IMG/VR virus record: IMGVR_UViG_3300022902_000004
Coordinates: 126,268 to 190,267 of that record
Direction: 5' to 3' (one strand)
DNA length: 64,000 bases
Source: a virus
Made by a program: the position numbers and the translations under genes. Position 1 is the first letter of the stretch. The number at the start of each line of letters is the position of its first letter. The notes under the pieces are model-generated. The model worked only from the letters and a program-made list of their open reading frames with translations, was not told where the DNA came from and searched no databases. Below are positions 10,534 through 48,277 of this stretch, one piece after another.

Positions 10534-10559
10534 TTTATCTCCTACCTTTACGTATCGTC

Positions 10560-26460: not shown

Positions 26461-26508
26461 ACAATAAATATATAGGAAATGAATGAATTGTATAGGAAAA
26501 AGATGGTT

Positions 26509-26546: not shown

Positions 26547-26574
26547 ATCATCTAGTGGTAACTAGATGGTCAAC

Positions 26575-33347: not shown

Positions 33348-34176
33348 TTTTAATCTCCATTTCCTCGAGTAGGTGAACCAAGTGTAGTGTTTTCGCCACC
33401 GTATCATCAGATTTTGCCTCTGACAGCCTTTCGATTCTAGTTTTTACGTTATCGATTTTTTCGAGTAGGACGTTATTGTCACACGTTTTTTTGAACTCAT
33501 TGACAGTTATGAGAGCTTTCTTCTTAATCTCGCAAATGATTGTACTGAAATTGTTTTCGTCGCCAAGGATCGCTGATTCCAAAACGGCCTGCTGTTGTGT
33601 GCTCAGGTGCTCTTTATATTTTTCTTCGAATTTCTGGAACATCAGCTTACGAACAAGCGGGTCTGCTTCGAATGTTTCTTTCAAAACAGCAGTCGACGTG
33701 CGTGCCAGGTGCTCAACAATTTGTTCTTCGTATTTTGCCTTATTCGTCAATGAAAGAGAATCCATGCCTCGCCACTCATTGAGCATCGTCTGGACTGTTG
33801 CATACAATCTATAACTTTCGATCTTAATGTCGTAAAATCGTGCTGATTGTGAAAGGCCGTGGTTTATGTCCTTGATCAGATTTGATTTCTCTTTCCGAAG
33901 TTTTTGCGAGCTGTGAGTTATTGCTGATTTCTTGCTCTCGAGCAAAATACGTTCAGCCAAGCTCCGAGAGCCGACAGGGAGGTTCACCAACGCATTGAAG
34001 AGCCTAAACTCTCGGAAGAGCTCAGAGTCTTGCTTAAAATGCTTCGTAATAATCGCAATTGCTTTCTCTGCTGATTTCTTGTCGCGCGCTATTAGCGAGC
34101 TGGCAACGTATCTAATCAGCTGCTCGTGTATTAGACCGACATTGCGTTTTTTGTTGTGCTTTGTCATTATGATCAA
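33334..34176 (-). CDS. prohead core/scaffold-like protein (gp68-like position)
   Basis: 280 aa, helical/charged. N-terminal LIHE motif. Between portal and protease as in T4 (20-67-68-21). Confidence 0.4.
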   Translation of the reverse strand: MIIMTKHNKKRNVGLIHEQLIRYVASSLIARDKKSAEKAIAIITKHFKQDSELFREFRLFNALVNLPVGSRSLAERILLESKKSAITHSSQKLRKEKSNLIKDINHGLSQSARFYDIKIESYRLYATVQTMLNEWRGMDSLSLTNKAKYEEQIVEHLARTSTAVLKETFEADPLVRKLMFQKFEEKYKEHLSTQQQAVLESAILGDENNFSTIICEIKKKALITVNEFKKTCDNNVLLEKIDNVKTRIERLSEAKSDDTVAKTLHLVHLLEEMEIKNEQK

Positions 34177-36104
34177 TCCCCTGTGTTCAAATTCTCATTC
34201 AACAGATCTTCAGATAAAAGTTCCGTCCTATTACTACTTATCGAGTTTCCCATTGACGTGAACATTCTTTCTAAACTTCGTGTCATTTTTGGTGCCATAA
34301 TTGAATTTCTTCCTTCGGACTCGCCTAGGTTGAACAACGACTCTGCATCGAATGGTTTATTTAGCGAATCCTGTGAACGCCCTGCTTTACCTACACTCAC
34401 CATCTTTCCAAAATCGGGCATGTGTGTCTGCTCAGCACCACCTTTGACTTTTCTGTTTGGCTTGATCGGTCCACCAAAAGCATTTTTGATTTTCTTTGCG
34501 GCCTTTTCAGGGGCGTCGATGTCATCAATTGATAAATTCAGTCGGTCATCGTCTTCATCACTTTCAAGCTCAAACTCGTTTCCCGTCCCGGGAAGTGCAG
34601 TTAATAATGAACCGCCTGGCTTATCACCAGCGAATAGGTCGTCAGCGCTGTCTGCCGGACCGTCATCCATCATCTCATCACCGCCGGCGGCGGGTGCATC
34701 ATCGGCTGGTTCGCCAGCTGCTTCGACCTCCATATCCTCAAGTTTATCTGCAATCCGGCCCGCTTTGATTTCTGCAATTTGTGTTGGTGTCAAGCCGAAC
34801 ACATCACGCCTGACGTAATTCCTATCAACAACACTTTCTGGAGCGCTATTGGCGATATCAAATCGAGTTCGAATCAGCTCTAACTTCTGTTGTTGAGCAA
34901 CCGAGCTTGGGTTTGTCAATTTCAAATCGAAGTCGGCCAAATCTTCCTCGGCAAACCCGTGACAGTAAAGGTGAATCATTGCCAGGGTATTGAATTCGGC
35001 AATGATAGTCTTCTGGATTTTTGCAATTGTACGACTAAACCTGATGTCTTCCATTGCCAGTGTCGCTTTGGAGCCCACATCCTCATCATATCCAAGATAT
35101 GCTCTCGGGATTTTCAGTGCGGAAAACAGTTTCTTCTGGATGTATTCAACATCCTCAATTGCTGCTGCGTTGGAACCTCCGGCTAAGGTGTCGATCCTTG
35201 TTCCTGATTCTTGGCCTCGAACTGGCAGGAAATAATCCTCATCAACGCTGTATGGGTTGTAGCGGTAATCCATCTTGCCGTTATTCTTATCGATTGCAGG
35301 CTGGCGCTTCAGGCTCGAGACGGCGCCTTCCATGAAGTTCTCGATTTCATTCGGTGGAATGTTACCCACATCAATGTAGAAAACTCGGCGTTCAGGAGCA
35401 CGAATGATCCTGTAGACAAGCATGGCGTCTTCCATGAGAATCAGTTGACGCCAAATACGACGCGCTGACTCTAGGACAGACGAACCGTACGGCAAGAATG
35501 CATCATTACCAAGCAATCTAAAGTGAGAGACCTGCCATTTTTCGAGGATTTGATTCCCTTGTGTAATCCAGCGGAACCGGACAGCCATTGGATCTTCAGG
35601 ATCAAAGCCTTCCTCTCTTTCAATTTCGCTGATTGCAATTGGGTATGCATTTACAATGCCGAATTCTGGAGAAATGTCGTTGAAAATGAAAAAGTCGCCG
35701 TACTTGCAGAGATTGCGGACCCACATTGTCAAGTTGAAATCCACGTTCAGAATATCGTAGAAGAGCTCGCCAAGGATTTCCTGAATCCTGTTGTTCTCAG
35801 AATAGATGTGGAGGACCTTTCCCTTGTCGTCACAGCTCGCGGTTTCTTCAGCATAGATGTCGAGCGCGGAGCCAATCTCTGGTGTTGCCTCCATTTCTGA
35901 GAAATCGCTGTATCTGCTCATTCTGTCGTAGGAACCGTATGCCGACAACGTGCTGTTATAAACGTTGCTGTGTACTTTGCGGAAAGTTTCTAGCGATGTC
36001 GATGAACTCGGACCTGATACGTTCTTTACGCGGCGTCTAACGACCGGACCTGATCTGAACAATTTTGTTAGTCGGGTAAATAACGACCCTTTGATTTCAC
36101 TCAT
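34173..36104 (-). CDS. portal protein (T4 gp20-like)
   Basis: 643 aa. Motifs SALDIYAEET and LKIPRAYLGYDED resemble gp20. Acidic C-terminus. ATGA overlap downstream. Confidence 0.8.
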   Translation of the reverse strand: MSEIKGSLFTRLTKLFRSGPVVRRRVKNVSGPSSSTSLETFRKVHSNVYNSTLSAYGSYDRMSRYSDFSEMEATPEIGSALDIYAEETASCDDKGKVLHIYSENNRIQEILGELFYDILNVDFNLTMWVRNLCKYGDFFIFNDISPEFGIVNAYPIAISEIEREEGFDPEDPMAVRFRWITQGNQILEKWQVSHFRLLGNDAFLPYGSSVLESARRIWRQLILMEDAMLVYRIIRAPERRVFYIDVGNIPPNEIENFMEGAVSSLKRQPAIDKNNGKMDYRYNPYSVDEDYFLPVRGQESGTRIDTLAGGSNAAAIEDVEYIQKKLFSALKIPRAYLGYDEDVGSKATLAMEDIRFSRTIAKIQKTIIAEFNTLAMIHLYCHGFAEEDLADFDLKLTNPSSVAQQQKLELIRTRFDIANSAPESVVDRNYVRRDVFGLTPTQIAEIKAGRIADKLEDMEVEAAGEPADDAPAAGGDEMMDDGPADSADDLFAGDKPGGSLLTALPGTGNEFELESDEDDDRLNLSIDDIDAPEKAAKKIKNAFGGPIKPNRKVKGGAEQTHMPDFGKMVSVGKAGRSQDSLNKPFDAESLFNLGESEGRNSIMAPKMTRSLERMFTSMGNSISSNRTELLSEDLLNENLNTGD

Positions 36105-36156: not shown

Positions 36157-37755
36157 TTATCCGAGCACCCACGAAAATTCGCTTGGGACATGTTCGGGTC
36201 GACCTCTGCTGCCATATGATCCATTCGGCATATTCATATATGGGTTCACGTTATTGACGTTTGTAACCTCACGTTGAGTGTCTTTATGCCTTTTGTTCAC
36301 GCCAAACCCTGCAAGCATGCCCTTTGCCGAGTCTTGACTTTTAACAGCACTTCCGGTGCCAGGCTCTACAAGCGAGTTTCCGATCGCCATAGCCATCACG
36401 ACATCATCGAATGAACCCTTCTTCGCGACGGGCTTATCACCCTTCATTACGAATGTTTTTAGCTCATCGACAAGCCTTGATGAACGAACCTTGATCGTGT
36501 TATTCCTTAACCGTTCTTCAAGCAATCTAAGGATTGGTCCACGTGTCTTGACACTCGTCACAAACCCGACTTTTCCTAAACTAACTTCAGTTGGGTCACC
36601 GTACATCAAATCGAATTTGTCTTTTAGCGATTTGAAATGAAGATTCTTATATCCAAGCTCAACGAGCTTTAGAATTGTCCCTTGCCCATACGTGTTATTT
36701 TCAGGACAAATTAAAGCGTTATTGAACTTCTTACCGACCTCGTCTAGCAGGACACCAAACTGATCGGGCCTTATTTTCCCTCGATATTCGCAAACCTGCT
36801 CAGCGGTGTTCTTGTTTATAACTTGGAATGATGAATAGTCATTTGCGTCGCCACGTGAAACGTCAGCCGACACTACGAATTCTTCTCCGACTTGTGGATA
36901 TGCCCATTGCCAAATTTCATTCTTGGCGCCCCATCTTTCGATCGGTGGCTCGATTTGCAGCCGTAGCCTTTCAATAATGTCGGCCGTGACGAACGTGTTA
37001 CCTGAACCTGCAAAGTCACACATCAGTTCCTGTGCAATTGCATGTGGTGTCATGTTCTTGACTTCTTTTTCCAGCCACACATCGTCTCTTTTCGGGTGAG
37101 CATGCCACATTAGCTTTGTAAGATTGAACTCACTAGTGCCTGCTTCAGCATCTTCGACTAGTTTATGATACATTCCTCCAGTACCATTCGGAGTGCTAAT
37201 AATAATAGCACGACCACCTTCTGCCAGCGTAAAATACAGACCAGTCCACAATGTATCAAAATCACGAATGAATGCAGCTTCGTCGACAATTAGTAACGAC
37301 AGTGCCTCAGAACGACCCGCATCTTCAGATGTTGGAATTGCTTTGATTTGCGAGCCATTACTGAATGCTACGAGCTGTTTTGTTCTTTCTGTCACAGACG
37401 GCAGAACAAGCCATTTTGGCAGTGCATTGAGGGCAACCTTCACCTTTTTGATAAAGTTCTGCGCAGTTGCTAACTTCGTAGCAATAACAAGAATGTTCTT
37501 GTCTCGATAAAAAATAGCCAGCCAAACTGCATAAATTGCAGTGACCGTTGAAAGGCCTAGCTGTCGAGCCTTGACGATGATGTTAAATCGATGGTCGATG
37601 AATGACTGGACACAATCATCCTGAAATTCGTATGTATCAAACTTGATCGTGCCTTTCATAGGCGTCTGGATCATCGCATACTTATTTATGAAATGAACAG
37701 GATCCTGGCCACAAAGAACAATCTCCTTTGCGTGTGTTGCAGTGGCGCGAGCCAT
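36157..37755 (-). CDS. terminase large subunit (T4 gp17-like)
   Basis: ARQLGLSTV (Walker A region, cf. gp17 SRQLGKT). LLIVDEAAFIRDF...AIIISTPNGTGGMYHKL aligns with gp17 MIYIEDCAFIPNF...KIIITTTPNGLNHFYDI. Confidence 0.9.
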   Translation of the reverse strand: MARATATHAKEIVLCGQDPVHFINKYAMIQTPMKGTIKFDTYEFQDDCVQSFIDHRFNIIVKARQLGLSTVTAIYAVWLAIFYRDKNILVIATKLATAQNFIKKVKVALNALPKWLVLPSVTERTKQLVAFSNGSQIKAIPTSEDAGRSEALSLLIVDEAAFIRDFDTLWTGLYFTLAEGGRAIIISTPNGTGGMYHKLVEDAEAGTSEFNLTKLMWHAHPKRDDVWLEKEVKNMTPHAIAQELMCDFAGSGNTFVTADIIERLRLQIEPPIERWGAKNEIWQWAYPQVGEEFVVSADVSRGDANDYSSFQVINKNTAEQVCEYRGKIRPDQFGVLLDEVGKKFNNALICPENNTYGQGTILKLVELGYKNLHFKSLKDKFDLMYGDPTEVSLGKVGFVTSVKTRGPILRLLEERLRNNTIKVRSSRLVDELKTFVMKGDKPVAKKGSFDDVVMAMAIGNSLVEPGTGSAVKSQDSAKGMLAGFGVNKRHKDTQREVTNVNNVNPYMNMPNGSYGSRGRPEHVPSEFSWVLG

Positions 37756-38130: not shown

Positions 38131-38374
38131 TTTTTCTTACCTCATTTCTGCATGGACGCCACCCGGTTTTCCACCGTTTGGCATTGATGTAGTAATAAGT
38201 ATCTACGCAATTGGTACATGCGTCTTTATCATGATATGATTCGAAATCTTTATCATCGCGAAGTAGGTGGTCGCAAACGGGACAAACATAAACTCTAACA
38301 ATGTCTGGCAGGACTAAACGATAACTGCCACGGAACACATTCTGCTTTTTCATTTTGTAAGTGTAAAACGACAT
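38120..38374 (-). CDS. small zinc-ribbon protein (CPVC...CTNC)
   Basis: 84-aa ORF with two Cys pairs. Start ambiguous. Confidence 0.35.
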   Translation of the reverse strand: MSFYTYKMKKQNVFRGSYRLVLPDIVRVYVCPVCDHLLRDDKDFESYHDKDACTNCVDTYYYINAKRWKTGWRPCRNEVRKNEL

Positions 38375-39192
38375 CCGCCGTTTGTAACACCTGGTGCTGA
38401 CAAAGCAACCGCCCTTGCGACTCTAGAACCGTACATCCTACTAATATCCTCGATGAACTTACCCACCGCCGGTGGAAGGGCTTTCTTGATTTCCGATACC
38501 CTTATCTTCGTTGAGATTGAATAACCCCATTGCTTATCTACATCGCTGAACCCGAGCTTTAGCATCTCTTCTTCAAATTTTTCTGCTGCCCAGAAGAAAA
38601 CATGACCGAGATTCTTTTCCTTCTCGACGTTGTGGAATTCACGATCTTCTGTGTTCATAGGCGACGAGATCAGAACCTTCCCACCTGGCTTCAACAAACG
38701 AAACGCCTCTTTGAAGAATAGCAGGTTTTGTTCGTATGAAAGATGTTCCACAGTCTCGCTCAGGACGACTGCGGAAATTGTTCCTGCCTTGATTGGAAGT
38801 GGCTTGGTGATGTCTGCACAAAGTGCCAACACATTTTTTCTGTTTTTGAACTTAGATGAAATGAGATAGTCTCGCCTAATGTCCACTCCGATGTAGTTCG
38901 GGTATGTTCGCTGCATTTTGTATGCGTTTTAGATTGGAATTTCCGCGCAGCCCATTTCTAGAATCACATCATTCTTATGATCTTCCATGGCGTTGAAACT
39001 ATGTAGCGCTCCCCAGGTACGCTCAAATGCCCCGAACAACCCATCATAGATTCCTTCCTGATCTGCCTGTCGTTTGGCAACGCTGTGCTTCATCAGCCCG
39101 GCGTTGTAGAATGCAACCCCTTCATCAAACTCAAGTGGTGCTGTAATGATGTCGGTGATTGCTTCTTTTTTGTTTGCTAGATTTTGTTGCAT
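38350..39192 (-). pseudogene. class I SAM-dependent methyltransferase interrupted by in-frame TAA (38929..38931)
   Basis: Upstream ORF ends ...DVILEMGCAEIPI* (start of motif I). Downstream ORF starts 12 nt later in the same frame with IGVDI (post-I), ADITKLP, VVLSETVEHL, LLKPGGKVLIS. A single MTase fold is split by one stop codon. Confidence 0.45.
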
Positions 39193-39199
39193 TATTTTC

Positions 39200-42100
39200 C
39201 TATAAAAATTTGACCTGGGCATCATGGCCCTTGGTTGTTGAAATCTCAATGATGTTGTCGACGACGTCTTTCACCGTGTCGACGTGTGATATTATTAAAA
39301 TCAGCCTGAACGTCTTTGTTAAACTCCTGAGCAGAGTTGTACAGGCTTCTACATTTGTCGCGTCGAGAGCACCAAACCCTTCATCAATAATCAGGACATC
39401 AGCTTTTGGAAGACTCGAAACTCGAACCAAAGCCGTACGAATTGCCAAGGATGACATCATTTTTTCCATGCCGCTACAGCACTCGATCACTCGTTTGGAG
39501 TCGCCGTAGTTTAGGATGATGTCCATACCTGCCGAATCGTCCACGGTCAGCTCAACAGTGAAACCGGTAATCCCCTGGAGGATGTTTGCAATCTCGACAT
39601 TGATTACCGGCAACTTACGCTTGACAATCTGGAGCGGGATTCCATTACGACTCAGTGCCTTGCCCAAGAGCGTCAATATTTGAACCTGTTGGTTGTTTTT
39701 CTCGAATTGGATTTTATCTGTTCGAAGGCGCTTCACCTCTGATGTCAACAGGCCGATTCGTTCACTCAGGGTTTGGATTCGTAACTTTGCCTCTTGCAGT
39801 TTTTCAGTTGCAAGCTTCTTCTTAGCCACCAGAATCTTGCGTTCCTTGGCACTTTCAGTTGAGCATAGATTGATTTTCATTCGTGACAACATTGAATTGT
39901 CAACGGCTAAATCTCGCTCGACGTTTGAAATACGACTCTCCAACCCGAGTATTTTCATGCTCAGTTTTGACTTGCTTTGTGCCAATAAGAACAGTTTTTC
40001 ATCATGCTCTTGTTTCTGGGCCAATTTCTCATCGACGTTTTCTTTGAGTAATTTCTTTAGAGATGACTTCAATGCGGCGACTCGTTTCTTCGATGCTAGC
40101 AAATCATCTTTTTTCTCGAGCATGTTCTTTTCGGCTTTCTTGGCGCTGATTATGTACTTGCATTGCGGAAAAGTGTCAGCACAGGGCACATCGCTTAGCT
40201 TTTTTACAGCTCGTTTGTCTGCCCGAAGCTTGGACGACTTTGTTTCAATTTCGCCTGTTGCCACAATGATCCCGTGCTCAGAATCAACAATCGCAACCTT
40301 TTTCTTTTTGAGTTTGGCAAAATCGATGTCCTGAATCTTGGTTTTCATCTCAGTAATTGTGGCATTGATTACGTCACGCTCGAGTGAAGCGACAGACATG
40401 GTTTCCATAAACTCGTCACGATCTTCATTTGCCTTTCTGATTTTCTCAGCCTGATCGTCAATTTCAGTCTGGACATACATTTCTTTTGTTTGTGAGTCCA
40501 ATGCAGAGTTTATGTTGTTCAAAATCCTCGTGATCTTTCCAAGGGAGTCAGATTCGGCAGTACGCTCCGCGATTCTCGCTTTTACCTTTGCCGTCTTATC
40601 AACAATCTTTGCATCGAACTGTTGTTCAGGTGCAGATTTGAGCATTTTCTTTGCGATGGACAAATCTTGCTTGACCAATTCAAATAGCGTGTCAAGGATA
40701 TCGAGCCTCAGGAATTTAGCCAGGATTGATTTTCTTGTTGCAGAACCTTGGTCCACAAAACGATTGATGTCGCCTTGGGATGCCAACGTCGTCAAAAGGA
40801 AGTCGTCCAAGGTTCCAACCAGCCCACGCAATATCTTTTCGGTTTCTCTGCGTTGCTCCTCAGAAATATCCTTCAGGGGTGTTCCTGTTTCATCGGATTC
40901 AAAAAGGTTCAGGTGGGTCACTGCATGGTGATCTCCTTTTTTCGTCGTCTTTTTTACAGTCTGACGCTCTACAAGGTAGTTTTTTCCCTTCTTTGAGATG
41001 AGAGCCTTGGCAACACAATATCCTTTTCTTGCATTCACAATGTGCATGTTCTTCATTGCGCCACGATCTGTACCGTTGAATAATGCGTAAGTTGCTGCAC
41101 CACACAAAGATGATTTTCCTGACCGATTCTTACCAAAAATGCCCGTAATACCGCTTGCGGACTCAAAGTTTACAATGTTTCCTTCACCGTACCCGAATAT
41201 ATTATCAAACTCCATTCGACGGAGAGACCACCGACCGGACGTTGAGTTATCAGCGAGTTTTGCAGACTTCCAAACGCCTGATAAGGTCTTCGCCATCTCA
41301 TTTATTGTTTCATCGTCCAATTTTGCGTTGGCATAGAACTCTTTGATTAGATTGTTTACCGCGTCGAAGCTGTCGAGTTTTATTGTTTCATCAAGGAGTT
41401 CATCTGAAAGTTCTAATGTTGCAGCATCTACCTCTCGTTTGAAAACAATTTCGGTTGGACCGGAGACGCTTTTTATTGCTGCGCGAATTTGTGACATGTC
41501 GGCTTGGGTTGCGGCACTCTGAATCTTGACTCTCACGTGCGCTGACGATGGATAGTCTTCCATTTCAGATTGCAGCTTGTCTAGATCATCGTCGTAATCC
41601 AAAGTCACGAATGGATGCTCATGTTTGATCTCGACATGCTTCACATCAAAATCATCTTTCGATTTGATGTCCCACATTAGGAAACCCTTTCCAGGGGTCT
41701 CGGCGTAGTTTTGTTGAATTGCGCTGCCGCTAAATCTGATCCGACCGGCCTTGTCAAGAATCTGTTGCTTGTGAATGTCACCTAGCATGACGAAATCATA
41801 CCCTTCAAAGAACTTCAAATTGACATCACTTTCAAGAGCCCAGGCGGCATCTGTTTCCGAATTGTGGACGACGCCATGGAACGTCGCAATGTTGATCTTT
41901 CCTTCTTCAGGCTTCACATCCGGCCATCCGGCTTCATCGAAACATGAAAAAACACAAATGTTGCACTCATCATTCATAGGATATGTGCCGGACTTTTTGT
42001 ATAGCTTGATTCTGGGATTGTCGATTGCAGCGAGGATCGGTGAGATTGCATCCTCTCTGTCTGGATTCAAAATAAGGCCGTCATGGTTGCCAAGGGTCAC

Positions 42101-42352
42101 GTGGACCTCTGCTATTTCAGCCAAACCGTTGAACCACCATGTCAAATTTGAAATCAGTTCAGGGGAAATGCCTTGGGTTTTTGAGTGAACGATGTCACCG
42201 GCGATGAAAATAATGTCTGGTTTCAAAGTATGCAACTTTGAAAATGCGTCTTCAAACGCTGTGCGATATTCATCGTGCCTAGAAAGAGAGCGCCAGTGTA
42301 TATCGCTTAAATGACAGATCTTAGTAATGTGACACCTCGAGGTTATTTTCAA
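39200..42352 (-). CDS. fused Mre11-Rad50 (SbcD-SbcC; T4 gp47-gp46 equivalent) recombination nuclease/ATPase
   Basis: N-terminal calcineurin-like phosphoesterase motifs (HLSDIHW, GDIVH, GNHD, TFHG). Then Rad50 Walker A FGKNRSGKSSL, long coiled coils, C-terminal signature/Walker B LIIDEGFGALD and ILIISHVDTV. Confidence 0.8.
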   Translation of the reverse strand: MKITSRCHITKICHLSDIHWRSLSRHDEYRTAFEDAFSKLHTLKPDIIFIAGDIVHSKTQGISPELISNLTWWFNGLAEIAEVHVTLGNHDGLILNPDREDAISPILAAIDNPRIKLYKKSGTYPMNDECNICVFSCFDEAGWPDVKPEEGKINIATFHGVVHNSETDAAWALESDVNLKFFEGYDFVMLGDIHKQQILDKAGRIRFSGSAIQQNYAETPGKGFLMWDIKSKDDFDVKHVEIKHEHPFVTLDYDDDLDKLQSEMEDYPSSAHVRVKIQSAATQADMSQIRAAIKSVSGPTEIVFKREVDAATLELSDELLDETIKLDSFDAVNNLIKEFYANAKLDDETINEMAKTLSGVWKSAKLADNSTSGRWSLRRMEFDNIFGYGEGNIVNFESASGITGIFGKNRSGKSSLCGAATYALFNGTDRGAMKNMHIVNARKGYCVAKALISKKGKNYLVERQTVKKTTKKGDHHAVTHLNLFESDETGTPLKDISEEQRRETEKILRGLVGTLDDFLLTTLASQGDINRFVDQGSATRKSILAKFLRLDILDTLFELVKQDLSIAKKMLKSAPEQQFDAKIVDKTAKVKARIAERTAESDSLGKITRILNNINSALDSQTKEMYVQTEIDDQAEKIRKANEDRDEFMETMSVASLERDVINATITEMKTKIQDIDFAKLKKKKVAIVDSEHGIIVATGEIETKSSKLRADKRAVKKLSDVPCADTFPQCKYIISAKKAEKNMLEKKDDLLASKKRVAALKSSLKKLLKENVDEKLAQKQEHDEKLFLLAQSKSKLSMKILGLESRISNVERDLAVDNSMLSRMKINLCSTESAKERKILVAKKKLATEKLQEAKLRIQTLSERIGLLTSEVKRLRTDKIQFEKNNQQVQILTLLGKALSRNGIPLQIVKRKLPVINVEIANILQGITGFTVELTVDDSAGMDIILNYGDSKRVIECCSGMEKMMSSLAIRTALVRVSSLPKADVLIIDEGFGALDATNVEACTTLLRSLTKTFRLILIISHVDTVKDVVDNIIEISTTKGHDAQVKFL

Positions 42353-43130
42353 AAATCATAACATACGTCCAATTCTTGTTATTACAAAAACCTATTGCAG
42401 CTCTTTTTTTTGCATCTACTTTTTCTGGGTCCCTTATAAACCCTTTGATTTCTTCAATGCATGTACTTCCGGAACAGCTTTCTACTAGTATATCCGGTAT
42501 GTATATATGTTCGGATCCGTCATGACTATATTTTATTTTTATGCCGTGCGACGTTGTAAACTTAACAACTTCATCACATGATTCAAGAAATCGCAATCTG
42601 CGCAGTTCGTATGACGACATATAATACATTCGTTCACCAGCTTTCTTCGAATAAAACCAGCCTCTTGCTGTGTTTTTCATTTGACCGGATTTTATAAAAA
42701 TCTTCTCAATTATTTCATCAAATTCTTTTTCGCTCTTTTTTGACCAATGGTTTTCTTTTATTAGTTGCCTTGTTTTATTCGAAACTGTTTTCCCGGTGCA
42801 GGCACTGCTATGCTTGTCTTTTCTGTCGTCAGTCCAGTACTCTTTTGCGTGTTTTTTTGTCCACCTAAACGCCTTACCGGTTTCATTGATTTGTTTCATG
42901 ACCCGACTGCCATTACTCGAAATAGCTTTTCGAATTTTCTTAGTTTCTTCTTTTGGTTTTTTTGACCAGTGATTTTCTTTAATTTTTTTGCTCACTTCTT
43001 TCTTCTTTTCACTTGTCATGACATCACCATACAATCGCCGATATTCGGCAACCCCCATATTATGTTTAAACTTCAAGTGAGAAGGAGAAATAATTCCAAA
43101 TTTTTTGTGGCATAGCTGACATTCTATCAT
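42321..43130 (-). CDS. freestanding homing endonuclease-like protein (zinc finger + ENHWSKK repeats + PD-(D/E)xK-like C-domain)
   Basis: Probable start MIECQLCHKKFG at 43130 (SD GAGGT). C-terminal YIPDILVE...CIEEIKG. 3' end overlaps the sbcCD-like start. Inserted between primase and Mre11-Rad50 genes. Confidence 0.5.
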   Translation of the reverse strand: MIECQLCHKKFGIISPSHLKFKHNMGVAEYRRLYGDVMTSEKKKEVSKKIKENHWSKKPKEETKKIRKAISSNGSRVMKQINETGKAFRWTKKHAKEYWTDDRKDKHSSACTGKTVSNKTRQLIKENHWSKKSEKEFDEIIEKIFIKSGQMKNTARGWFYSKKAGERMYYMSSYELRRLRFLESCDEVVKFTTSHGIKIKYSHDGSEHIYIPDILVESCSGSTCIEEIKGFIRDPEKVDAKKRAAIGFCNNKNWTYVMIFENNLEVSHY

Positions 43131-43185
43131 TTTAGATACCTCGCAGATATAAGTATCTTGACATCGGCCATGTGGCAAATTTTTG

Positions 43186-44145
43186 TCATAGTATAGAACC
43201 GCTCTTGATTTTTGAAATCTTGTGATTGAGAAAAGAAACTGGAGTCCACCGTGCCGTCGTCGCCAAAATGTCACGAACATCGCTTTTCGTTCTGCTGCCT
43301 AGGTCGTTACCCTTGATCGTTAAGTTATAAACGGAACAACCGGCAAGAGATAAACGGCGACATACGTCATGAATTCTGCTTTCTGCATCTTCATCAAACG
43401 CCACGATAACCGTACTTTCATGTTGCTTCAACCTCATAAATAAATTACTGCCTGATGCTAGCGAAGAACCTAACACAGGAACTGTATTCTCCGGACATTT
43501 TACTGCATCGAACACACCTTCCACAAGAATGATCGGTTCATCCCAGTTGATGTCGAACTCGTTAAAAATGACCGTTCGTTTCGGCACGTCAGCATTTTTG
43601 TATTTGAATTTTGTTTCATCGATGCACCTCGCCGTGTAGTAGTTGAGCTGGCCTGAGGCTGTAAATGACGGGAAGATTGCCTTGCGGCGAAACTTGAACT
43701 CATTTGACACACATATGCGCCATCTATACATATCCATTTTCGTCAGGCCACGGGCTTTTAGGTATCTTTTTACATCATTTGCGTCGGGATCATTTTTCGC
43801 GGACATTAACAAAACTGAATCTTCCGGCAGTTCCGGCGGCAGAATGATCTCTTCGAGAGCCTGCTGGTCTGTATATGACCGGTCTTCATGAAATAATTGT
43901 GCGCATCGAGGGGCATAATTTTTAGCGAACTTGCGAAACAAAAAGTTGATGTTTTTGCCAGAGGTGCCGCATACCCAACAATGATACCAGCCGGTTGCCA
44001 GCTCAATATATAGCTTTTTCTTATTTTTTCGGCCATCTTTGCAACTTGGACAGGAAACGTGGAAGTTTACCTTCCCAGTTTCCATGTAACCAGATCCAAA
44101 CGCAGCTTCAAATAAAGCAGTCTTTTTTGATATTTCTAAGCCCAC
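43186..44145 (-). CDS. DNA primase (DnaG/T4 gp61-like)
   Basis: Zinc-binding CPSCKDGRKNKKKLYIE...WYHCWVCGTSGKNINFL. Toprim motifs ILVEGVFDA and VIVAFDEDAES. Confidence 0.8.
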   Translation of the reverse strand: MGLEISKKTALFEAAFGSGYMETGKVNFHVSCPSCKDGRKNKKKLYIELATGWYHCWVCGTSGKNINFLFRKFAKNYAPRCAQLFHEDRSYTDQQALEEIILPPELPEDSVLLMSAKNDPDANDVKRYLKARGLTKMDMYRWRICVSNEFKFRRKAIFPSFTASGQLNYYTARCIDETKFKYKNADVPKRTVIFNEFDINWDEPIILVEGVFDAVKCPENTVPVLGSSLASGSNLFMRLKQHESTVIVAFDEDAESRIHDVCRRLSLAGCSVYNLTIKGNDLGSRTKSDVRDILATTARWTPVSFLNHKISKIKSGSIL

Positions 44146-44735
44146 TATACATTTGTATCACTAATGTCTGTGGTTTTCAAAACATCGGCGCCAAAACGAG
44201 CAACAACATATGCATCGGCGATGTCAAAACAAACTGCCTCATTACGTGTGATACCCTTATTCTTCCCGCTTTTGAGTACTTTTGTGGGCCATGGGTATGA
44301 AATCATGTCTGGTTGAACCTTCACCCACTCAAAAACTTGGTCTTTCGTGTTGAGGGGTAGTTTCCTGTTGACGAAGCACCCGACGGCTTTCCTCGTGGAA
44401 ATCACATTGGCCAGGTATAATGGGCAATCAAAAATTGAACGAGCGAGGTAACTAGCAATACCGTTGAACCGGTTTAGCTTCGCCAACGTCCCAGCAGAAG
44501 ACATCCTGCTTCTAAACGCCTGGAGAGCCTCCTCAACAACAATCACGTCAATCTCGTGATCGTACGCCACATCGGAAAGATGTTCCCTCAACATGCACGA
44601 CTTCGTATAGAGACCTTTTGTTTTTGTCATCGAAATACCGTCGGCAATGACAACACGATCTTCCATTGGTAACGATGTGTCAATTACACAAACACCCACG
44701 TTTGACGTTGAAACGTCCAATCCTAAAACTTTCAT
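44145..44735 (-). CDS. RuvC-like Holliday junction resolvase
   Basis: MKVLGLDVSTSNVGVCVID (Asp7 equivalent), VIVVEEAL (Glu66 equivalent), FDIADAY (DxxD). Confidence 0.65.
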   Translation of the reverse strand: MKVLGLDVSTSNVGVCVIDTSLPMEDRVVIADGISMTKTKGLYTKSCMLREHLSDVAYDHEIDVIVVEEALQAFRSRMSSAGTLAKLNRFNGIASYLARSIFDCPLYLANVISTRKAVGCFVNRKLPLNTKDQVFEWVKVQPDMISYPWPTKVLKSGKNKGITRNEAVCFDIADAYVVARFGADVLKTTDISDTNV

Positions 44736-44742
44736 ACACGTA

Positions 44743-45741
44743 TTATGACATAATTTTTAGTTCGCGTAAATCGTGTTCTGTTATGAATCGATATTCGTTG
44801 ATCCCTTCAGACTCACAGAATTTTCGGGATGCTAATGCTTTTTGTTGAACTTTTTCTGTGTTTATAAACATTGACGGTTTCACTTCCCATATTTGTCTTG
44901 TTCCGTCACTAAATTCAACCAAAAAATCAGGAATATACCACCTTTTTTCCCCATTGTAACGATATGGAATTTTAATTGTTTCATATCCATATGATGCTAC
45001 ATTATCATCATTGTCGAGAAAGTTCATTGTTATTAGTTCCCAACCGGAACGATAGAACATTTTCTTGCCTGTTTTTGGTGAAACGTGTTCACCGGCTTGG
45101 CGATTTTTTCCGTACGGCTTTATTTTGCCAGCTAACATCATTTCTGCACGTTTTAGCGACATAATTGCCTTAGATTCAACAGTATGGCACTTTCCATACA
45201 TCGGATTGTTTTTTCCCTTCGAGCGATTTGAATTACGTTGCTCGGCGCTCATTTTCTTTTTTGATTCTTCGCTATGCTTTCGACCTGTCCATGGGTGAAC
45301 ATATGTCCCTTCTTTTTGCTTTTTACGAATTGTACGACTAATATTTGCACGGGCTTCTGGCGTCATACTTTTCTCATGCCAAATCGCATAAGTTTCTGGG
45401 TTTTTTGATTTCCATGATCCGTAACATTGAGGTTTGCAAAAGCTTCCATGAATTTCATTTGGGGCAGCCTGAGACGTCCATCGCTCAATTAGTTTTCCGC
45501 AATCTCTGCAGTTTGCTTTTGTTATTGCTGCACCGTGACCGCCGAAGCCGTCAGACTTACGATGACCGTATGTACATTTTTTTGAACATCGATGTATTTT
45601 TGCTCTTACGTATGCAGTTCTATATTTTCCAGCACGCTCAAACGTCGAACCACAAATATCACATTTGATGACTACAACCGTTGGTGGATTACCAGGAGCG
45701 CCCGGTCTTTTTCTTGGAAGTTGTTTTATTTCTATGATCAT
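44743..45741 (-). CDS. freestanding homing endonuclease-like protein (NUMOD3-like repeats + PD-(D/E)xK)
   Basis: HPWTGRKHSEESKKKMSAEQR and NNPMYGKCHTVESKAIMS are NUMOD3-like. C-terminal WYIPDFLVEF...IWEVKP. Paralogous architecture to 25465..26460. Confidence 0.55.
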   Translation of the reverse strand: MIIEIKQLPRKRPGAPGNPPTVVVIKCDICGSTFERAGKYRTAYVRAKIHRCSKKCTYGHRKSDGFGGHGAAITKANCRDCGKLIERWTSQAAPNEIHGSFCKPQCYGSWKSKNPETYAIWHEKSMTPEARANISRTIRKKQKEGTYVHPWTGRKHSEESKKKMSAEQRNSNRSKGKNNPMYGKCHTVESKAIMSLKRAEMMLAGKIKPYGKNRQAGEHVSPKTGKKMFYRSGWELITMNFLDNDDNVASYGYETIKIPYRYNGEKRWYIPDFLVEFSDGTRQIWEVKPSMFINTEKVQQKALASRKFCESEGINEYRFITEHDLRELKIMS

Positions 45742-45781: not shown

Positions 45782-48277
45782 TTAATAATCGAGGCGGACT
45801 CTTACCACGTATCGGTCGCCGTCTCGCTTAATTGCAGGTTGTGCGAAGTTGGCACGACCTACAACGTTTAGGTTCTCATCATGGAATTGCATTCCCGTCA
45901 GGTATACAAATGACTTCGCCGTTTCATTGGGGTAATCACTTGGAACCATGTCCTGGTATGTCGGGTTCGGCGATGAGTTGACGAAACCCTTGTCGACAGG
46001 GACGTTGACTTCAAGGACGTGGATATTTCGCTGGCCTTCAAATGAGATTTCCCAGGCATCAGAACCAAACATAGGAAGATTCGGAGATTTGACAACGAGG
46101 ATTCCCTCTTCATAAATCACATTTCCAACCGACGCCCAGGTTGCATGTGAGCCCTCCGAATCAGCTCGGTACAGGTTACCATACCCATCGTCTTTCAGGG
46201 TTATCTGGACCCTCCCGTTCGACCCTGTTACAGCCAAATCCTTCAACACAATCGATTTTGGTTTCAATTGGTCGCCATAGAACATGTTTGACACATCAAA
46301 GAACACAACTTCATTCGAACTCGGGTCCTTTGTTCGCTGGAGAATTGTCAGAATGTTCGCGGGAGAAACAGCAGGATCCTCAGGGGTCGGACCGATTAGC
46401 GGAGCAACAATAGATCCAGAGATAAGTTTTGCCGTCCCTTGCTGGTCATCAAATTTTGGAAGAAATTCTGTGCTGACCAGATTTTCCAACGTAATCAATG
46501 ACAGGTCAATATTTCCAAAATCATTTCTAAATTTGTCCAGAATCGAACCGCTGGTAGCTTTGTCCAAGTTTCCTGAAAGCAACATTTTGAAATTCGGTGT
46601 GAACCTTCCGTTATCGCATGGAAGAATCGACAAGTTTCGTTTTCTATGGCTGCCGGATTCGTAGATCCAGTAGTTTGCAGATTTCGGTGTGATCGTCGTC
46701 GAATCAATTTGTGATGTTTCAAGACCGAGGTGCCGCGGTGTGGTTCCACGAACAAACTCACGAGTGAAGTTTTGAATGTTTAGCTCATGACCTCCAACAC
46801 CAAATGACATCGCTACGTTGAATGGATCGTTTGTCGTTCCAGTCGTATAGAAGAATGGAGTTTGATTCACATATCGAGGTTGGACTGCTTTGACGAAGAA
46901 TGGTGGCACATAGAATAACAACCCATCATTCGCAGAGCTTCCAGACAATTTTTGATCCGTGCCGGTCACATTACCATGAATGTAGTAATCACTAAATTCG
47001 GCACCTTTCATCGATGATGTCAGTATTTGTTGGTTGCTTCGGTAATTGTCGTAAATCTTGAGATCGTGAACCTCAGCATTCAACGGGTGACTGAACGATG
47101 AATCCGTCGGGTCTGTAGCACCATCATCGTCGTTGAAGTTCAGAACTCCGAATTGCCTGTGAGCTGTTGGGTTGAAATATCCTGCGATCGGTTTTGTGTC
47201 GTAGTTGCTTCCATCATAGAAGTTGCCGATGAACAAAGCATCAGCATCATGGTACTCATTCGATGTTACAATCGGTTGCATGACTGAAGCGCTTGTGATT
47301 GGGAATGTTCCCTTTTCCTGGCCGTCGATTACAAACGATCCGGTGCCACGAGCAACATTCTCACCTCCCCAACGGACAGCAATATGGTGCCACTTGTTGA
47401 AGGATAATGAGTTGTCGTCTGACATGAATAAGAAGCCCGGGTCAGCAGTCGCTCCTGGTGCAGTAACTGAATCGCCTGAGATTGTTATTTCGCTGGGTTT
47501 GATTTCTGCCGACTGGCTCAATTGGAGCAACAAACGGAAACCATCAGGCTTCGCCGTCTTCGATGAAATAGATGAACCGGTCACCAAACTAATCGCGTAT
47601 GACGACGACATATGGAAAATCGTGCCGGGTCGGTACTCATCCCCTACGTTCTCAGTTGTGTATCTCGGGTTGACATAGAAATCAAATGTGAAACTGGAAC
47701 TTGGGGCGTAAACATTTGTATCCTCAAGCGCGACCGTTCCAGTTCCTGCCGGGTAAATCAGGCATGTGTTCTCGGGAAGGTATGAGGATGTCACGAAATT
47801 CAGCGAATGATAGTTTGAATATGCCCATTGCAAAGTTGGGTATGCATGCCTGTAGAATGGAAACAATGATGTCTTCGTTACTCGTTTGCGCTGGAAATTC
47901 TTATCAATCTTGATTCCAGGCTCAAATCGTATGACATTTTGCTTCTTGTCGAATTGTGATGAACTTACAAGTCCGTGTACCTTGGAAATATATGCATCGA
48001 TAGCGCCGAAAGCGTTTATAGAGTTAGAAGCAGCCTCGACTGCGGCAGCTCTCAGGTTTTCTACTTGTTCATCATTTGCTGGATCAGCATTCAACCCAAC
48101 GTCAGAAAACACATCCTTGAACGCAGATGAGCCATCGGCGAATAAAGGAAGGGCACCGGTGATTCCAGAAGGGGTGACATGTACCATTGCCAGCGACGCA
48201 GATTTGTAGGTGCGCGCAGGTTCGGCTCGTAACGAATACCTTTCTACATTTTCTTTCGTGATCTTGATAATTGACAT
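45782..48277 (-). CDS. large structural protein (baseplate/tail fiber module, 831 aa)
   Basis: Long ORF, Ser/Thr/Gly/Asn-rich beta-type composition typical of baseplate wedge or fiber proteins. Confidence 0.5.
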   Translation of the reverse strand: MSIIKITKENVERYSLRAEPARTYKSASLAMVHVTPSGITGALPLFADGSSAFKDVFSDVGLNADPANDEQVENLRAAAVEAASNSINAFGAIDAYISKVHGLVSSSQFDKKQNVIRFEPGIKIDKNFQRKRVTKTSLFPFYRHAYPTLQWAYSNYHSLNFVTSSYLPENTCLIYPAGTGTVALEDTNVYAPSSSFTFDFYVNPRYTTENVGDEYRPGTIFHMSSSYAISLVTGSSISSKTAKPDGFRLLLQLSQSAEIKPSEITISGDSVTAPGATADPGFLFMSDDNSLSFNKWHHIAVRWGGENVARGTGSFVIDGQEKGTFPITSASVMQPIVTSNEYHDADALFIGNFYDGSNYDTKPIAGYFNPTAHRQFGVLNFNDDDGATDPTDSSFSHPLNAEVHDLKIYDNYRSNQQILTSSMKGAEFSDYYIHGNVTGTDQKLSGSSANDGLLFYVPPFFVKAVQPRYVNQTPFFYTTGTTNDPFNVAMSFGVGGHELNIQNFTREFVRGTTPRHLGLETSQIDSTTITPKSANYWIYESGSHRKRNLSILPCDNGRFTPNFKMLLSGNLDKATSGSILDKFRNDFGNIDLSLITLENLVSTEFLPKFDDQQGTAKLISGSIVAPLIGPTPEDPAVSPANILTILQRTKDPSSNEVVFFDVSNMFYGDQLKPKSIVLKDLAVTGSNGRVQITLKDDGYGNLYRADSEGSHATWASVGNVIYEEGILVVKSPNLPMFGSDAWEISFEGQRNIHVLEVNVPVDKGFVNSSPNPTYQDMVPSDYPNETAKSFVYLTGMQFHDENLNVVGRANFAQPAIKRDGDRYVVRVRLDY

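What the first reader, a model, noticed from the sequence alone, without database searches (positions are those of the whole stretch)
39200..42352. Mre11 (SbcD) and Rad50 (SbcC) fused into one 1050-aa polypeptide
In T4 and most systems the nuclease (gp47/SbcD/Mre11) and the ABC ATPase (gp46/SbcC/Rad50) are separate genes. Here the calcineurin-like phosphoesterase motifs (D-x-H, GDxxH, GNHD, H) are followed in the same frame by the Rad50 Walker A (GKNRSGKSS), coiled coils, and the C-terminal signature, D-loop and H-loop. A canonical CxxC zinc hook is not obvious (only CADTFPQC).
Basis: seen in the sequence. Interest (0 to 1): 0.5.

Follow-up and report, generated by a model that had tools for sequence, protein, structure and literature searches.

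The report
Single-chain Mre11–Rad50 nuclease of marine phage
A marine T4-like giant phage encodes its DNA-end-processing nuclease (Mre11) and its ATPase partner (Rad50) as one real, widely conserved protein, but natural fusions of this kind were already described in 2011, so this is a new member of a known family, not a new kind of system.

Summary
ORF 39200..42352 (minus strand, 1050 aa) is a complete Mre11/SbcD followed in frame by a complete Rad50/SbcC. The Mre11 part has the nuclease, cap and Rad50-binding helix-loop-helix. The Rad50 part has Walker A, Q-loop, coiled coil, apex, signature, Walker B, D-loop and H-loop.

It is not an artefact. A query spanning the junction finds 1,516 clusters (50% identity) at E<=1e-30. 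Nearly all of the best 150 cover the junction in one stretch in proteins of about 1,040 aa. Gene order (RuvC, primase, fusion, TerL, T4-type portal) is kept at 43% identity on a 322-kb contig.

The kind is known. Yoshida, Claverie & Ogata 2011 described Mre11/Rad50 fusions (Mimivirus R555) and abundant aquatic, probably phage, homologues with the same motif peculiarities and the same neighbours.

Three points are new here:
- The coiled-coil apex carries a conserved, co-varying Cys pair, mostly C-x6-C, instead of CxxC.
- An 857-bp homing-endonuclease cassette sits at the motif I Asp codon. It strands the original start and supplies a replacement N-terminus.
- Relatives carry inteins at other catalytic motifs.

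Interest is modest.

The parts
39200..42352 (-). Whole fused Mre11-Rad50 (SbcDC-like) ORF, 1050 aa, TTG start. Stop codon at 39200-39202.
41432..42325 (-). Mre11/SbcD nuclease and capping domains (aa 10-307). Motifs: I D17-x-H19; II GDIVH56; III GNHD91; IV H159; V GD192-I-H194.
   Evidence: Pfam Metallophos. NCBIfam sbcd, 11-91 and 181-302. phmmer alignments to T. maritima Mre11 and S. aureus SbcD. Motifs invariant. AF2 strands and helices 10-307. Fold hits 6s6v_A and 7dog_A.
41369..41431 (-). Flexible linker (aa 308-328). Residues 311-320 have pLDDT below 50.
41264..41368 (-). Helix-loop-helix (aa 329-363), homologous to the Rad50-binding domain at the C-terminus of Mre11.
   Evidence: AF2 helices 329-339 and 347-363. 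phmmer alignment runs to T. maritima Mre11 residues 335-375.
41234..41263 (-). 10-residue connector AKLADNSTSG (aa 364-373) joining the Mre11 C-terminus to Rad50 strand 1.
   Evidence: Matches the 9-12-residue linker predicted for such fusions in PMC3175470.
40703..41233 (-). Rad50 N-terminal ATPase lobe (aa 374-550): Walker A GKNRSGKSS (407-415) and Q-loop S525-Q526-G527.
40190..40702 (-). Ascending coiled-coil arm (aa 551-721).
   Evidence: AF2 helices 551-572, 579-619, 628-674 and 678-721
40160..40189 (-). Coiled-coil apex VPCADTFPQC (aa 722-731), a candidate non-canonical zinc hook (C724-x6-C731).
   Evidence: Non-helical apex in AF2. P723 and C724 invariant. Perfect co-variation of the second Cys: (F/Y728, C731) in 89 sequences and (C728, N/H731) in 12 of 101. 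At least 2 apex Cys in 135 of 135 diverse representatives.
39653..40159 (-). Descending coiled-coil arm (aa 732-900).
   Evidence: AF2 helices 732-770, 773-827 and 834-900
39203..39652 (-). Rad50 C-terminal ATPase lobe (aa 901-1050): signature SGMEK (960-964), Walker B D990-E991, D-loop GFGALD, H-loop S1022-H1023.
42306..43162 (-). 857-bp insertion relative to the 92%-identical relative, flanked by CGAT on both sides. It carries a NUMOD/TnsA-like endonuclease ORF (probable start Met at 43130, stop at 42321). Its 3' end supplies the present TTG start and a diverged replacement N-terminus (MKITSRCH-ITKICHLS).
   Evidence: blastn against L003. Pfam Tn7_TnsA-like_N. PHROG 15427, endonuclease. No group I intron.
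43163..43189 (-). Orphan original 5' end of the fused gene, ATGACAAAAATTTGCCACATGGCCGAT (MTKICHMAD). It overlaps the primase stop (ATGA) and now opens only a 20-codon ORF.
43186..44145 (-). DnaG/Toprim-type DNA primase, a conserved upstream neighbour.
   Evidence: PHROG 47, E 1e-35. Synteny in L001, L002, L003 and LR756508.
44145..44735 (-). RuvC-like Holliday-junction resolvase, a conserved neighbour.
   Evidence: PHROG 159, E 4e-13. Synteny.

Best explanation
The gene encodes a functional single-chain Mre11-Rad50 (SbcD-SbcC) enzyme of an uncultured marine T4-like jumbo myovirus.

Shown:
- One ORF contains a complete Mre11 (phosphoesterase domain with all metal-ligand motifs, capping domain, C-terminal helix-loop-helix) and a complete Rad50 (both ATPase lobes, antiparallel coiled coil, Cys-bearing apex).
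- The architecture is conserved in a very large viral family.
- The gene sits in a conserved replication/recombination block next to a primase and a RuvC-like resolvase.

Inferred, from established knowledge of Mre11-Rad50/SbcCD and T4 gp46/gp47:
- Two chains form a homodimer equivalent to the M2R2 heterotetramer. Mre11 domains would dimerise, each helix-loop-helix would dock on the base of a Rad50 coiled coil, ATP would engage the two Rad50 heads, and the two apices would be joined by a metal ion held by two Cys from each chain.
- ATP binding and hydrolysis would gate the Mn-dependent nuclease, so that DNA ends and hairpins are recognised and resected.
- This would feed recombination-dependent replication and repair, and probably host-DNA breakdown, as gp46/gp47 do in T4.
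- Fusion fixes 1:1 stoichiometry and co-expression, and lets the machine move between genomes as one gene.

It belongs to the non-canonical fused Mre11/Rad50 group first described for Mimivirus R555 and its aquatic viral homologues.
For: Domains and motifs:
- Profile and PDB hits to both halves.
- Catalytic residues are invariant in 101 sequences and nearly invariant in a further 135 diverse ones.
- The AF2 model (mean pLDDT 83) shows nuclease and cap, linker, helix-loop-helix, a 10-residue connector, then a Rad50 head with a folded-back coiled coil.
- Fold hits are to Rad50/SbcC and SbcD.

The fusion is real:
- 2,629 homologues were found. Of the 120 listed, all but two (an 886-aa fragment and a 1,006-aa protein covering 96%) are about 1,040 aa long and cover at least 98% of the query.
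- 1,516 clusters at 50% identity match the junction-spanning query at E<=1e-30, and nearly all of the best 150 span residues 11-565 in one stretch.

Context:
- RuvC, primase, fusion, TerL, T4-type portal and prohead protease are syntenic at 43% identity on a 322-kb contig, and also at 92% and 67% identity.
- Primase directly upstream also in the 484-kb phage LR756508.
- The window is a T4-like myovirus (Gp23 capsid protein, sheath, portal, TerL).
- There is no second Mre11/Rad50 copy in the window.

Link to the known family:
- The same GDxxH, and the same Asp in place of P. furiosus Mre11 His206, as R555.
- The 9-12-residue linker predicted in the paper.
- The same phage-type primase, RuvC and T4-like neighbours on the GOS scaffolds.
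- The best viral structural matches are fused mimivirid proteins, E 4e-59.
Against: - No biochemistry exists for any member of the family.
- Three hallmark motifs deviate from the canonical form: motif V is GDIH instead of GHxH, the signature is SGMEK instead of SGGE/Q, and the apex is C-x6-C instead of CxxC.
- Dimerisation, zinc binding and docking of the helix-loop-helix on the coiled coil are inferred.
- In this genome the ancestral ATG has been displaced by an inserted cassette. Translation must start at a TTG without an obvious Shine-Dalgarno sequence, or at an ATT preceded by GAGG.
- Only 64 kb of a genome of probably about 300 kb is visible, so a separate gp46/gp47 pair elsewhere cannot be excluded.
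- Relatedness to R555 rests on shared motif states, structural ranking (only about 19% identity) and matching neighbours, not on a phylogeny.
Confidence: 0.85

Rival explanations
1. The fusion is an assembly or sequencing artefact: a missed stop or frameshift between adjacent sbcD-like and sbcC-like genes.
For: None was found. Only the general point that the two are separate genes in T4, bacteria and archaea.
Against: The uninterrupted junction is conserved in hundreds of independent assemblies from ENA, JGI, NCBI, Logan and Tara, at 35-92% identity and with the same total length. The junction region is structured and conserved.
Confidence: 0.01
2. In this particular genome the gene is decaying or poorly expressed. 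A homing-endonuclease cassette landed at codon 9 (motif I), removed the native ATG and its translational coupling to the primase, and left only a TTG or ATT start.
For: An 857-bp insertion sits exactly at the Asp codon of D-x-H. The orphan ATG fragment lies at 43163-43189. ATT occupies the position of the homologues' ATG. No clear Shine-Dalgarno sequence precedes the TTG.
Against: All 1050 codons are open, and every catalytic residue is intact at 92% identity to an uninterrupted relative. The cassette's 3' end re-encodes the lost N-terminal strand (ITKICHLSD versus MTKICHMAD) in frame, with GAGG 6 nt before the ATT and the endonuclease stop overlapping it. That looks like preserved function and re-coupled translation.
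Confidence: 0.07
3. The protein is mainly a conflict-system component and not a recombination enzyme: an SMC/ABC-type defence or superinfection-exclusion nuclease of the Lamassu, Pbe or MADS kind.
For: Weak PADLOC hits to mad3 (E 2e-12), PbeC (3e-7) and LmuB (7e-7). Rad50-like ATPases have been recruited to defence (papers listed).
Against: These hits are generic ABC/SMC similarity, about 35 orders of magnitude weaker than the hit to the phage SbcC-like PHROG. No partner genes of those systems are adjacent. The gene is a conserved core gene in a primase/RuvC/packaging block across very divergent phages. SbcC and SbcD are near-universal core recombination genes of jumbo myoviruses (PMC7824862).
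Confidence: 0.05

Closest known systems
Mre11/Rad50 fusion proteins of Yoshida, Claverie & Ogata 2011 (Mimivirus R555 and its GOS/BIOME aquatic viral homologues)
   Same: - N-terminal Mre11 and C-terminal Rad50 in one ORF.
- GDxxH in motif II and Asp replacing P. furiosus Mre11 His206 in motif V.
- Cap and helix-loop-helix retained, with a connector of about 10 residues to Rad50.
- Abundant in marine viral metagenomes.
- Neighbours are Herelleviridae-like primases, RuvC and T4-like phage genes.
- Mimivirid fused proteins are the top structural matches.
   Different: - R555 is 1351 aa with a much longer coiled coil. Identity to the mimivirid proteins is only about 15-20% in structure-based alignment.
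- The window protein comes from a tailed T4-like phage.
- The paper could confirm the fusion for only five partial GOS sequences, and it did not analyse the hook.
- Monophyly with R555 was not tested here.
T4 gp47/gp46 (phage Mre11/Rad50)
   Same: The genome type is the same: T4-like capsid, portal, terminase and sheath. The expected role is the same: end resection for recombination-dependent replication. The coiled coil is short compared with cellular Rad50.
   Different: In T4 the two proteins are separate, and gene 46 (Rad50) lies upstream of gene 47 (Mre11) (my own knowledge). Here there is one chain in the order Mre11 then Rad50. The T4 Rad50 hook is taken to be the canonical CxxC (literature), whereas here it is C-x6-C.
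Bacterial SbcCD (E. coli, PDB 6s6v/7yzo/7yzp) and T. maritima Mre11-Rad50 (3qg5/3qf7)
   Same: The domain order matches the sbcD-sbcC operon order. Sequence and fold matches cover both subunits, including the cap and the Rad50-binding helix-loop-helix. Motif II GDxxHS is as in T. maritima.
   Different: Those are two polypeptides. Motif V is GHxH, the signature is SGGE/Q and the hook is CxxC. Sequence similarity to them is low (E 1e-13 to 1e-3).
Fused homologues in huge uncultured phages (LR756508, 484 kb; LR756501/LR756503, 735 kb) and in Tenacibaculum phages pT24/PTm1
   Same: The fusion junction is covered in a single tblastn piece at 26-27% identity. Primase is immediately upstream in LR756508. 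The Tenacibaculum phage proteins give full-length structural matches.
   Different: They are much more divergent. The LR756508 copy spans 4.1 kb in two pieces, so it probably carries an insertion.

Membership tests
Mre11/SbcD nuclease (calcineurin-like phosphoesterase, COG0420) | Motifs I-IV: D-x-H, GDxx[D/H], GNH[D/E], and the motif IV His | tested here: met
   D17/H19, G52-D53...H56, G88-N89-H90-D91 and H159 are invariant in 101 sequences. D, H and H159 are kept in 135 of 135 diverse representatives and GNHD in 133 of 135. Pfam Metallophos E 2.6e-11, above the gathering score.
Mre11/SbcD nuclease (calcineurin-like phosphoesterase, COG0420) | Motif V G-H-x-H (both His are metal ligands) | tested here: not met
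   The sequence is G191-D192-I193-H194. D192 aligns with the first His of T. maritima LGHIH and S. aureus LGHLH. The Asp is universal in the family and is also found in Mimivirus R555. Asp can bind metal, so activity is plausible but untested.
Mre11/SbcD nuclease (calcineurin-like phosphoesterase, COG0420) | Capping domain and C-terminal Rad50-binding helix-loop-helix | tested here: met
   NCBIfam SbcD profile positions 217-341 match residues 181-302. Fold hits 7dog_A and 6s6v_A. AF2 helices 329-339 and 347-363, and a phmmer alignment reaching T. maritima Mre11 335-375. Actual binding to the coiled coil was not tested.
Rad50/SbcC ABC ATPase | Walker A, Q-loop, Walker B, D-loop and H-loop, split between two lobes | tested here: met
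   G407-x-N-x-x-G-K-S-S415, Q526, D990-E991, G992-F-G-A-L-D997 and S1022-H1023 are conserved. Both lobes align to T. maritima and P. furiosus Rad50.
Rad50/SbcC ABC ATPase | ABC signature motif S-G-G-[E/Q] | tested here: inconclusive
   The sequence is S960-G-M-E-K964. Ser, the first Gly and Glu are kept, and the second Gly is Met (Ala or Ser in some relatives). In the alignment to T. maritima Rad50 it pairs with SGGER.
Rad50/SbcC ABC ATPase | Long antiparallel coiled coil inserted between the two lobes | tested here: met
   AF2 gives helices 551-721 and 732-900, with matching interruptions at 620-627/828-833 and 675-677/771-772.
Rad50/SbcC ABC ATPase | CxxC zinc hook at the coiled-coil apex | tested here: not met
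   The apex is VPC724-ADTFPQ-C731, that is C-x6-C. In the family, x6 occurs in 114 of 135 sequences, with others at x4, x7 or x8 or with a third Cys; a minority in the 101-sequence set has x3; only 2 have CxxC. Two Cys are always present and co-vary, so a metal-mediated hook is plausible. Zinc binding cannot be tested here.
Fused Mre11/Rad50 proteins (R555-like; Yoshida et al. 2011) | Mre11-like N-terminus and Rad50-like C-terminus in one ORF, with a short linker after the helix-loop-helix | tested here: met
   The 10-residue connector (364-373) falls within the 9-12 residues predicted in the paper.
Fused Mre11/Rad50 proteins (R555-like; Yoshida et al. 2011) | Same clade as Mimivirus R555 and its GOS homologues | tested here: inconclusive
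   Shared GDxxH and His-to-Asp states. Top BFVD hits are mimivirid fused proteins, E 4e-59 but about 19% identity. The neighbours match. No R555 sequence was available for a phylogeny.
SMC/ABC-type anti-phage defence systems (Lamassu LmuB, PbeC, MADS mad3) | Strong match to the system's ATPase model, plus the system's partner genes adjacent | tested here: not met
   Only weak hits, E 2e-12 to 7e-7. The neighbours are a primase, a RuvC-like resolvase, endonuclease ORFs and packaging genes.
Group I intron interrupting the gene at motif I | Group I ribozyme core; the 5' exon ends in U and the intron ends in G | tested here: not met
   No Rfam hit at E<=1 in 42100-43400. The CGAT-flanked junctions cannot satisfy both splice-site rules. 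The cassette carries its own in-frame replacement N-terminus.

The most novel reading that the evidence does not exclude
The family-wide apex motif VPC-x-D-x-[FY]-P-x-C-K-[YF]-I (C-x6-C, with a co-varying C-x3-C-P subtype) may be a structurally distinct zinc hook, or another Cys-based dimerisation device. It would replace the supposedly universal Rad50 CxxC hook in a very large clade of single-chain Mre11-Rad50 enzymes.

Separately, homing elements that hit this gene's catalytic motifs include a free-standing endonuclease cassette that carries its own replacement N-terminus for the gene it interrupts.
Probability: 0.45. Interest if true: 0.4.

Novelty: new member of a known kind. Interest (0 to 1): 0.27.

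Why it matters
The fusion itself is ordinary, because it was described in 2011 and is now seen to be very common. The window's value lies in four modest points.

- **Placement.** It puts a full-length member in an unambiguous tailed-phage genome (T4-like capsid, portal, terminase and sheath). This supports the 2011 suspicion that the abundant marine "R555 homologues" belong to phages and not to giant viruses.
- **A compact test system.** A 1,050-aa protein that should form a homodimer is a naturally stoichiometric Mre11-Rad50 with short coiled coils. That could be convenient for structural and single-molecule work.
- **The hook.** The conserved non-CxxC apex bears on what a Rad50 hook minimally needs.
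- **Homing elements.** The cassette at motif I, together with inteins at motif III and Walker A in relatives, is a clean example of homing elements targeting the catalytic motifs of one essential phage gene.

Tried and rejected
- **Nearest DNA relatives:** megablast of 12 kb around the gene against 50,697 phage records gave no match.
- **Plasmid fusions:** the plasmid collection gave only C-terminal ABC-lobe hits, with no junction-spanning relatives. The plasmid-borne fusions of the 2011 paper are therefore not close kin.
- **Group I intron or split gene at the 5' insertion:** rejected. There is no Rfam hit, the splice rules fail, and the orphan ATG opens only 20 codons.
- **Defence-system reading:** rejected on weak PADLOC hits and on context.
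- **Second Mre11/Rad50 copy in the window:** none was found with a family HMM run against all six-frame ORFs.
- **Direct comparison with the R555 sequence:** not possible, because no tool returned the sequence and the paper's supplements hold only tables.
- **AFDB50 fold search:** the library was unavailable.
- **Geometric checks on the AF2 model** (active site, helix-loop-helix docking, Cys-Cys distance): not possible, because coordinates are not exposed.
- **Literature:** searches for later work on this phage family, or for non-CxxC hooks, found nothing specific.
Full report
**1. The observation**

The window has an ORF at exactly 39200..42352 on the minus strand, 1050 aa long, starting with TTG.

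Profile searches support both halves:
- Pfam Metallophos covers residues 11-195 (E 2.6e-11, above the gathering score), with SMC_N, SbcC_Walker_B and AAA_23/27/29 further along.
- NCBIfam sbcd matches 11-91 and 181-302, and sbcc matches 590-1040.
- PHROG 77 (SbcC-like) scores E 5e-47.
- In the PDB, both ATPase lobes match T. maritima and P. furiosus Rad50, and the N-terminus matches T. maritima Mre11 and S. aureus and E. coli SbcD.

So is CADTFPQC at 724-731, with no CxxC nearby.

**2. The fusion is real**

- The large protein database holds 2,629 homologues. Of the 120 listed, all but two (an 886-aa fragment and a 1,006-aa protein at 96% coverage) are about 1,040 aa long, 43-92% identical, cover at least 98% of the query, and almost all carry Metallophos together with Rad50-type domains.
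- I also searched with only the first 571 residues (Mre11, linker and the Rad50 N-lobe). A full-length hit to this query must itself be fused. The search found 4,267 clusters at 50% identity, 1,516 of them at E<=1e-30. Nearly all of the best 150 cover residues ~11-565 in one stretch within proteins of about 1,040 aa.
- The sequences come from ENA, JGI, NCBI, Logan and Tara assemblies, on contigs of up to 322 kb.

A hidden stop or frameshift is therefore excluded.

**3. Anatomy**

Conservation in 22, 101 and 135 sequences:

| Region | Motif | State |
|---|---|---|
| Mre11 | I | D17-x-H19 |
| Mre11 | II | G52-D53-x-x-H56 |
| Mre11 | III | G88-N89-H90-D91 |
| Mre11 | IV | H159 |
| Mre11 | V | G191-D192-I193-H194 |
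| Rad50 | Walker A | G407...G412-K-S-S415 |
| Rad50 | Q-loop | Q526 |
| Rad50 | signature | S960-G-M-E-K964 |
| Rad50 | Walker B | D990-E991 |
| Rad50 | D-loop | G992-F-G-A-L-D997 |
| Rad50 | H-loop | S1022-H1023 |

Pairwise alignments show LGDIH opposite T. maritima LGHIH and S. aureus LGHLH. The first His of motif V is therefore an Asp here. GDIVHS lies opposite T. maritima GDLLHS. The similarity to T. maritima Mre11 continues into its C-terminal Rad50-binding helix-loop-helix.

AlphaFold2 with the 101-sequence alignment gives mean pLDDT 83 and pTM 0.50:
- nuclease and cap: 10-307
- low-confidence linker: 311-320
- helix-loop-helix: 329-339 and 347-363
- connector: 364-373 (10 residues)
- Rad50 strand 1 from 374
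- coiled-coil arms: 551-721 and 732-900, with a non-helical apex at 722-731
- C-lobe: 901-1050
- the first 7-8 residues are disordered

Foldseek against the PDB returns Rad50, SbcC and SbcD/Mre11.

**4. The apex**

P723 and C724 are invariant. The second Cys co-varies perfectly. Residues 728 and 731 are (F/Y, C) in 89 sequences and (C, N/H) in 12 of 101. They are never both Cys and never both non-Cys.

Among 135 more diverse representatives, every sequence has at least two apex Cys. The spacing is x6 in 114, and only two have a canonical CxxC.

The literature treats CxxC as the conserved Rad50 hook, and describes the hook's essential role as stable dimerisation. A zinc-binding hook with a wider loop is the most economical reading, but it is an inference.

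**5. Genome and context**

The window is a T4-like myovirus:
- Gp23-type capsid protein (26575-28473)
- two sheath paralogues (7450-13727)
- gp20-type portal (34173-36104)
- TerL (36157-37755)
- baseplate hub (3394-4248) and head-tail adaptor (15759-16928)

Upstream of the fused gene lie a DnaG/Toprim primase (43186-44145) and a RuvC-like resolvase (44145-44735).

The order RuvC, primase, fusion, two small ORFs, TerL, T4-type portal, prohead protease is kept in a relative at 43% identity on a 322-kb contig, and in relatives at 92% and 67% identity. Primase also directly precedes the fused gene in the 484-kb phage LR756508.

No second Mre11- or Rad50-like ORF exists in the window. PADLOC gives only weak, generic ABC similarity.

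The gene is therefore a core replication/recombination gene. This agrees with SbcC and SbcD being near-universal in jumbo myoviruses (PMC7824862).

**6. Mechanism**

The following is inferred from established Mre11-Rad50, SbcCD and T4 gp46/gp47 knowledge. Two chains should form the equivalent of M2R2, held together in three ways:
- dimerisation of the Mre11 domains
- ATP-driven engagement of the Rad50 heads
- the Cys apex

Each helix-loop-helix would dock on a coiled-coil base. ATP turnover would gate end and hairpin cleavage and resection, feeding recombination-dependent replication.

The order Mre11 then Rad50 is the only one compatible with the T. maritima complex. There the Mre11 C-terminus lies about 28 Å from the Rad50 N-terminus (PMC3175470). 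The 10-residue connector fits that distance.

**7. What is already known**

Yoshida, Claverie & Ogata (Virol J 2011; PMC3175470) showed that Mimivirus R555 is an Mre11/Rad50 fusion. They found twelve more in bacteria, plasmids, eukaryotes and one phage. R555 homologues were the most abundant Mimivirus-like sequences in GOS and BIOME, with 93% in viral fractions. They lay on scaffolds with phage primases and endonucleases, and the authors suspected phages.

The match to the window is close:
- R555 has the same GDxxH and the same Asp in place of P. furiosus Mre11 His206.
- The paper's supplementary table lists neighbours hitting SPO1, Twort, G1, LP65 and A511 primases, a RuvC, and T4-like phages (S-PM2, syn9, RM378).
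- The window's primase hits Staphylococcus, Brochothrix, Enterococcus and Lactobacillus myovirus primases of the same type.
- The best matches in the viral structure library are full-length fused proteins of Tupanvirus, Yasminevirus, Harvfovirus, Catovirus, Tetraselmis virus and others, plus Tenacibaculum phages pT24 and PTm1. E-values reach 4e-59, but identity is only 15-20%.

I conclude that the window carries a full-length phage member of this known fused group. I could not run a phylogeny with R555. The paper does not mention the hook.

**8. An unexpected detail at the 5' end**

In the 92%-identical relative L003, the primase stop overlaps the fused gene's ATG (ATGA). In the window the arrangement differs:
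- Homology to L003 runs through the primase and the first 27 nt of the fused gene (ATGACAAAAATTTGCCACATGGCCGAT = MTKICHMAD, at 43189-43163), and then breaks.
- It resumes at 42305, exactly at the Asp codon of motif I.
- The intervening 857 bp (43162-42306) is flanked by CGAT on both sides.

The inserted block encodes a NUMOD/TnsA-like PD-(D/E)xK endonuclease, with a probable start at 43130. Paralogues lie at 44743-45741 and 25465-26547.

The 3' end of the block re-encodes the lost N-terminus in frame with diverged codons (TTG...ATT ACT AAG ATC TGT CAT TTA AGC GAT = MKITSRCH-ITKICHLSD). GAGG lies 6 nt before the ATT, and the endonuclease stop overlaps it.

No group I intron is detectable. The gene therefore remains open, but its start has been remodelled.

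Relatives of 1,400-1,780 aa carry inteins just after motif III and at Walker A. This gene is thus a recurrent target of homing elements at its catalytic motifs.

**9. Verdict**

- Novelty: a new member of a known kind.
- Interest is modest (about 0.27).
- The non-CxxC apex and the motif I cassette are the only points that go beyond the 2011 description.

Noticed in passing
window 42306-43189 (minus strand): An 857-bp endonuclease cassette, flanked by CGAT, is inserted at codon 9 of the fused gene (the Asp of motif I D-x-H). A 27-nt orphan copy of the original 5' end (MTKICHMAD) is left abutting the primase. The cassette's 3' end provides a diverged in-frame replacement N-terminus (ITKICHLSD), with ATT where homologues have ATG, GAGG 6 nt upstream, and the endonuclease stop overlapping. 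There is no group I intron signal.
   Followed up: partly
window 25465-26547, 42321-43280 and 44743-45741 (all minus strand): Three paralogous NUMOD3 / TnsA-like-N (PD-(D/E)xK) endonuclease ORFs (PHROG 15427) lie next to the capsid gene, the fused gene and the RuvC gene. The 44743-45741 copy is also present in the 92% relative L003. The 43% relative L001 has neither of the two copies in this block (the capsid-side copy lies outside the locus fetched). They are probably free-standing homing endonucleases.
   Followed up: partly
P0227, P0233, P0239, P0267 (family members of 1400-1779 aa); also LR756508.1 122577-126709: Some homologues of the fused protein carry inteins: an intein splicing domain right after motif III (about residue 93) and a LAGLIDADG/Hom_end domain near the Walker A region. 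The copy in the 484-kb phage spans 4.1 kb in two tblastn pieces, so it probably also has an insertion.
   Followed up: partly
window 7450-10533 and 10560-13727 (minus strand): Two tandem, very large tail-sheath paralogues (1027 and 1055 aa). Only the C-terminal ~300 residues match the sheath Pfam domains, and the long N-terminal parts have no match.
   Followed up: no
window 26575-28473 (minus strand): The Gp23-type major capsid protein is 632 aa. The best Pfam stretch covers only residues 368-623, so there may be a large N-terminal region not covered by the T4 Gp23 model.
   Followed up: no
window 38350-38916 (minus strand): A SAM-dependent methyltransferase lies between the fused gene and TerL. 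It is present in the window and in L003 (92% relative). No ORF of that size or annotation occupies this position in the 67% and 43% relatives. It gives a weak PADLOC hit to mad2.
   Followed up: no
P0078 (MBR52352.1) and P0108 (MBK23591.1): Family members deposited as proteins of 'Candidatus Poribacteria bacterium' and 'Halobacteriovorax sp.' MAGs sit on contigs of about 105-109 kb. Given the family's phage context, these contigs are probably mis-binned phage sequence.
   Followed up: no
window 45782-48277 (minus strand); L001 5205-8408: A large conserved protein (831 aa here, 1067 aa in L001) with a weak Laminin_G_3 / concanavalin-like lectin domain lies upstream of the RuvC/primase/fusion block (directly upstream of RuvC in L001; here the endonuclease ORF 44743-45741 lies in between). 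It has no PHROG match and its function is unknown.
   Followed up: no
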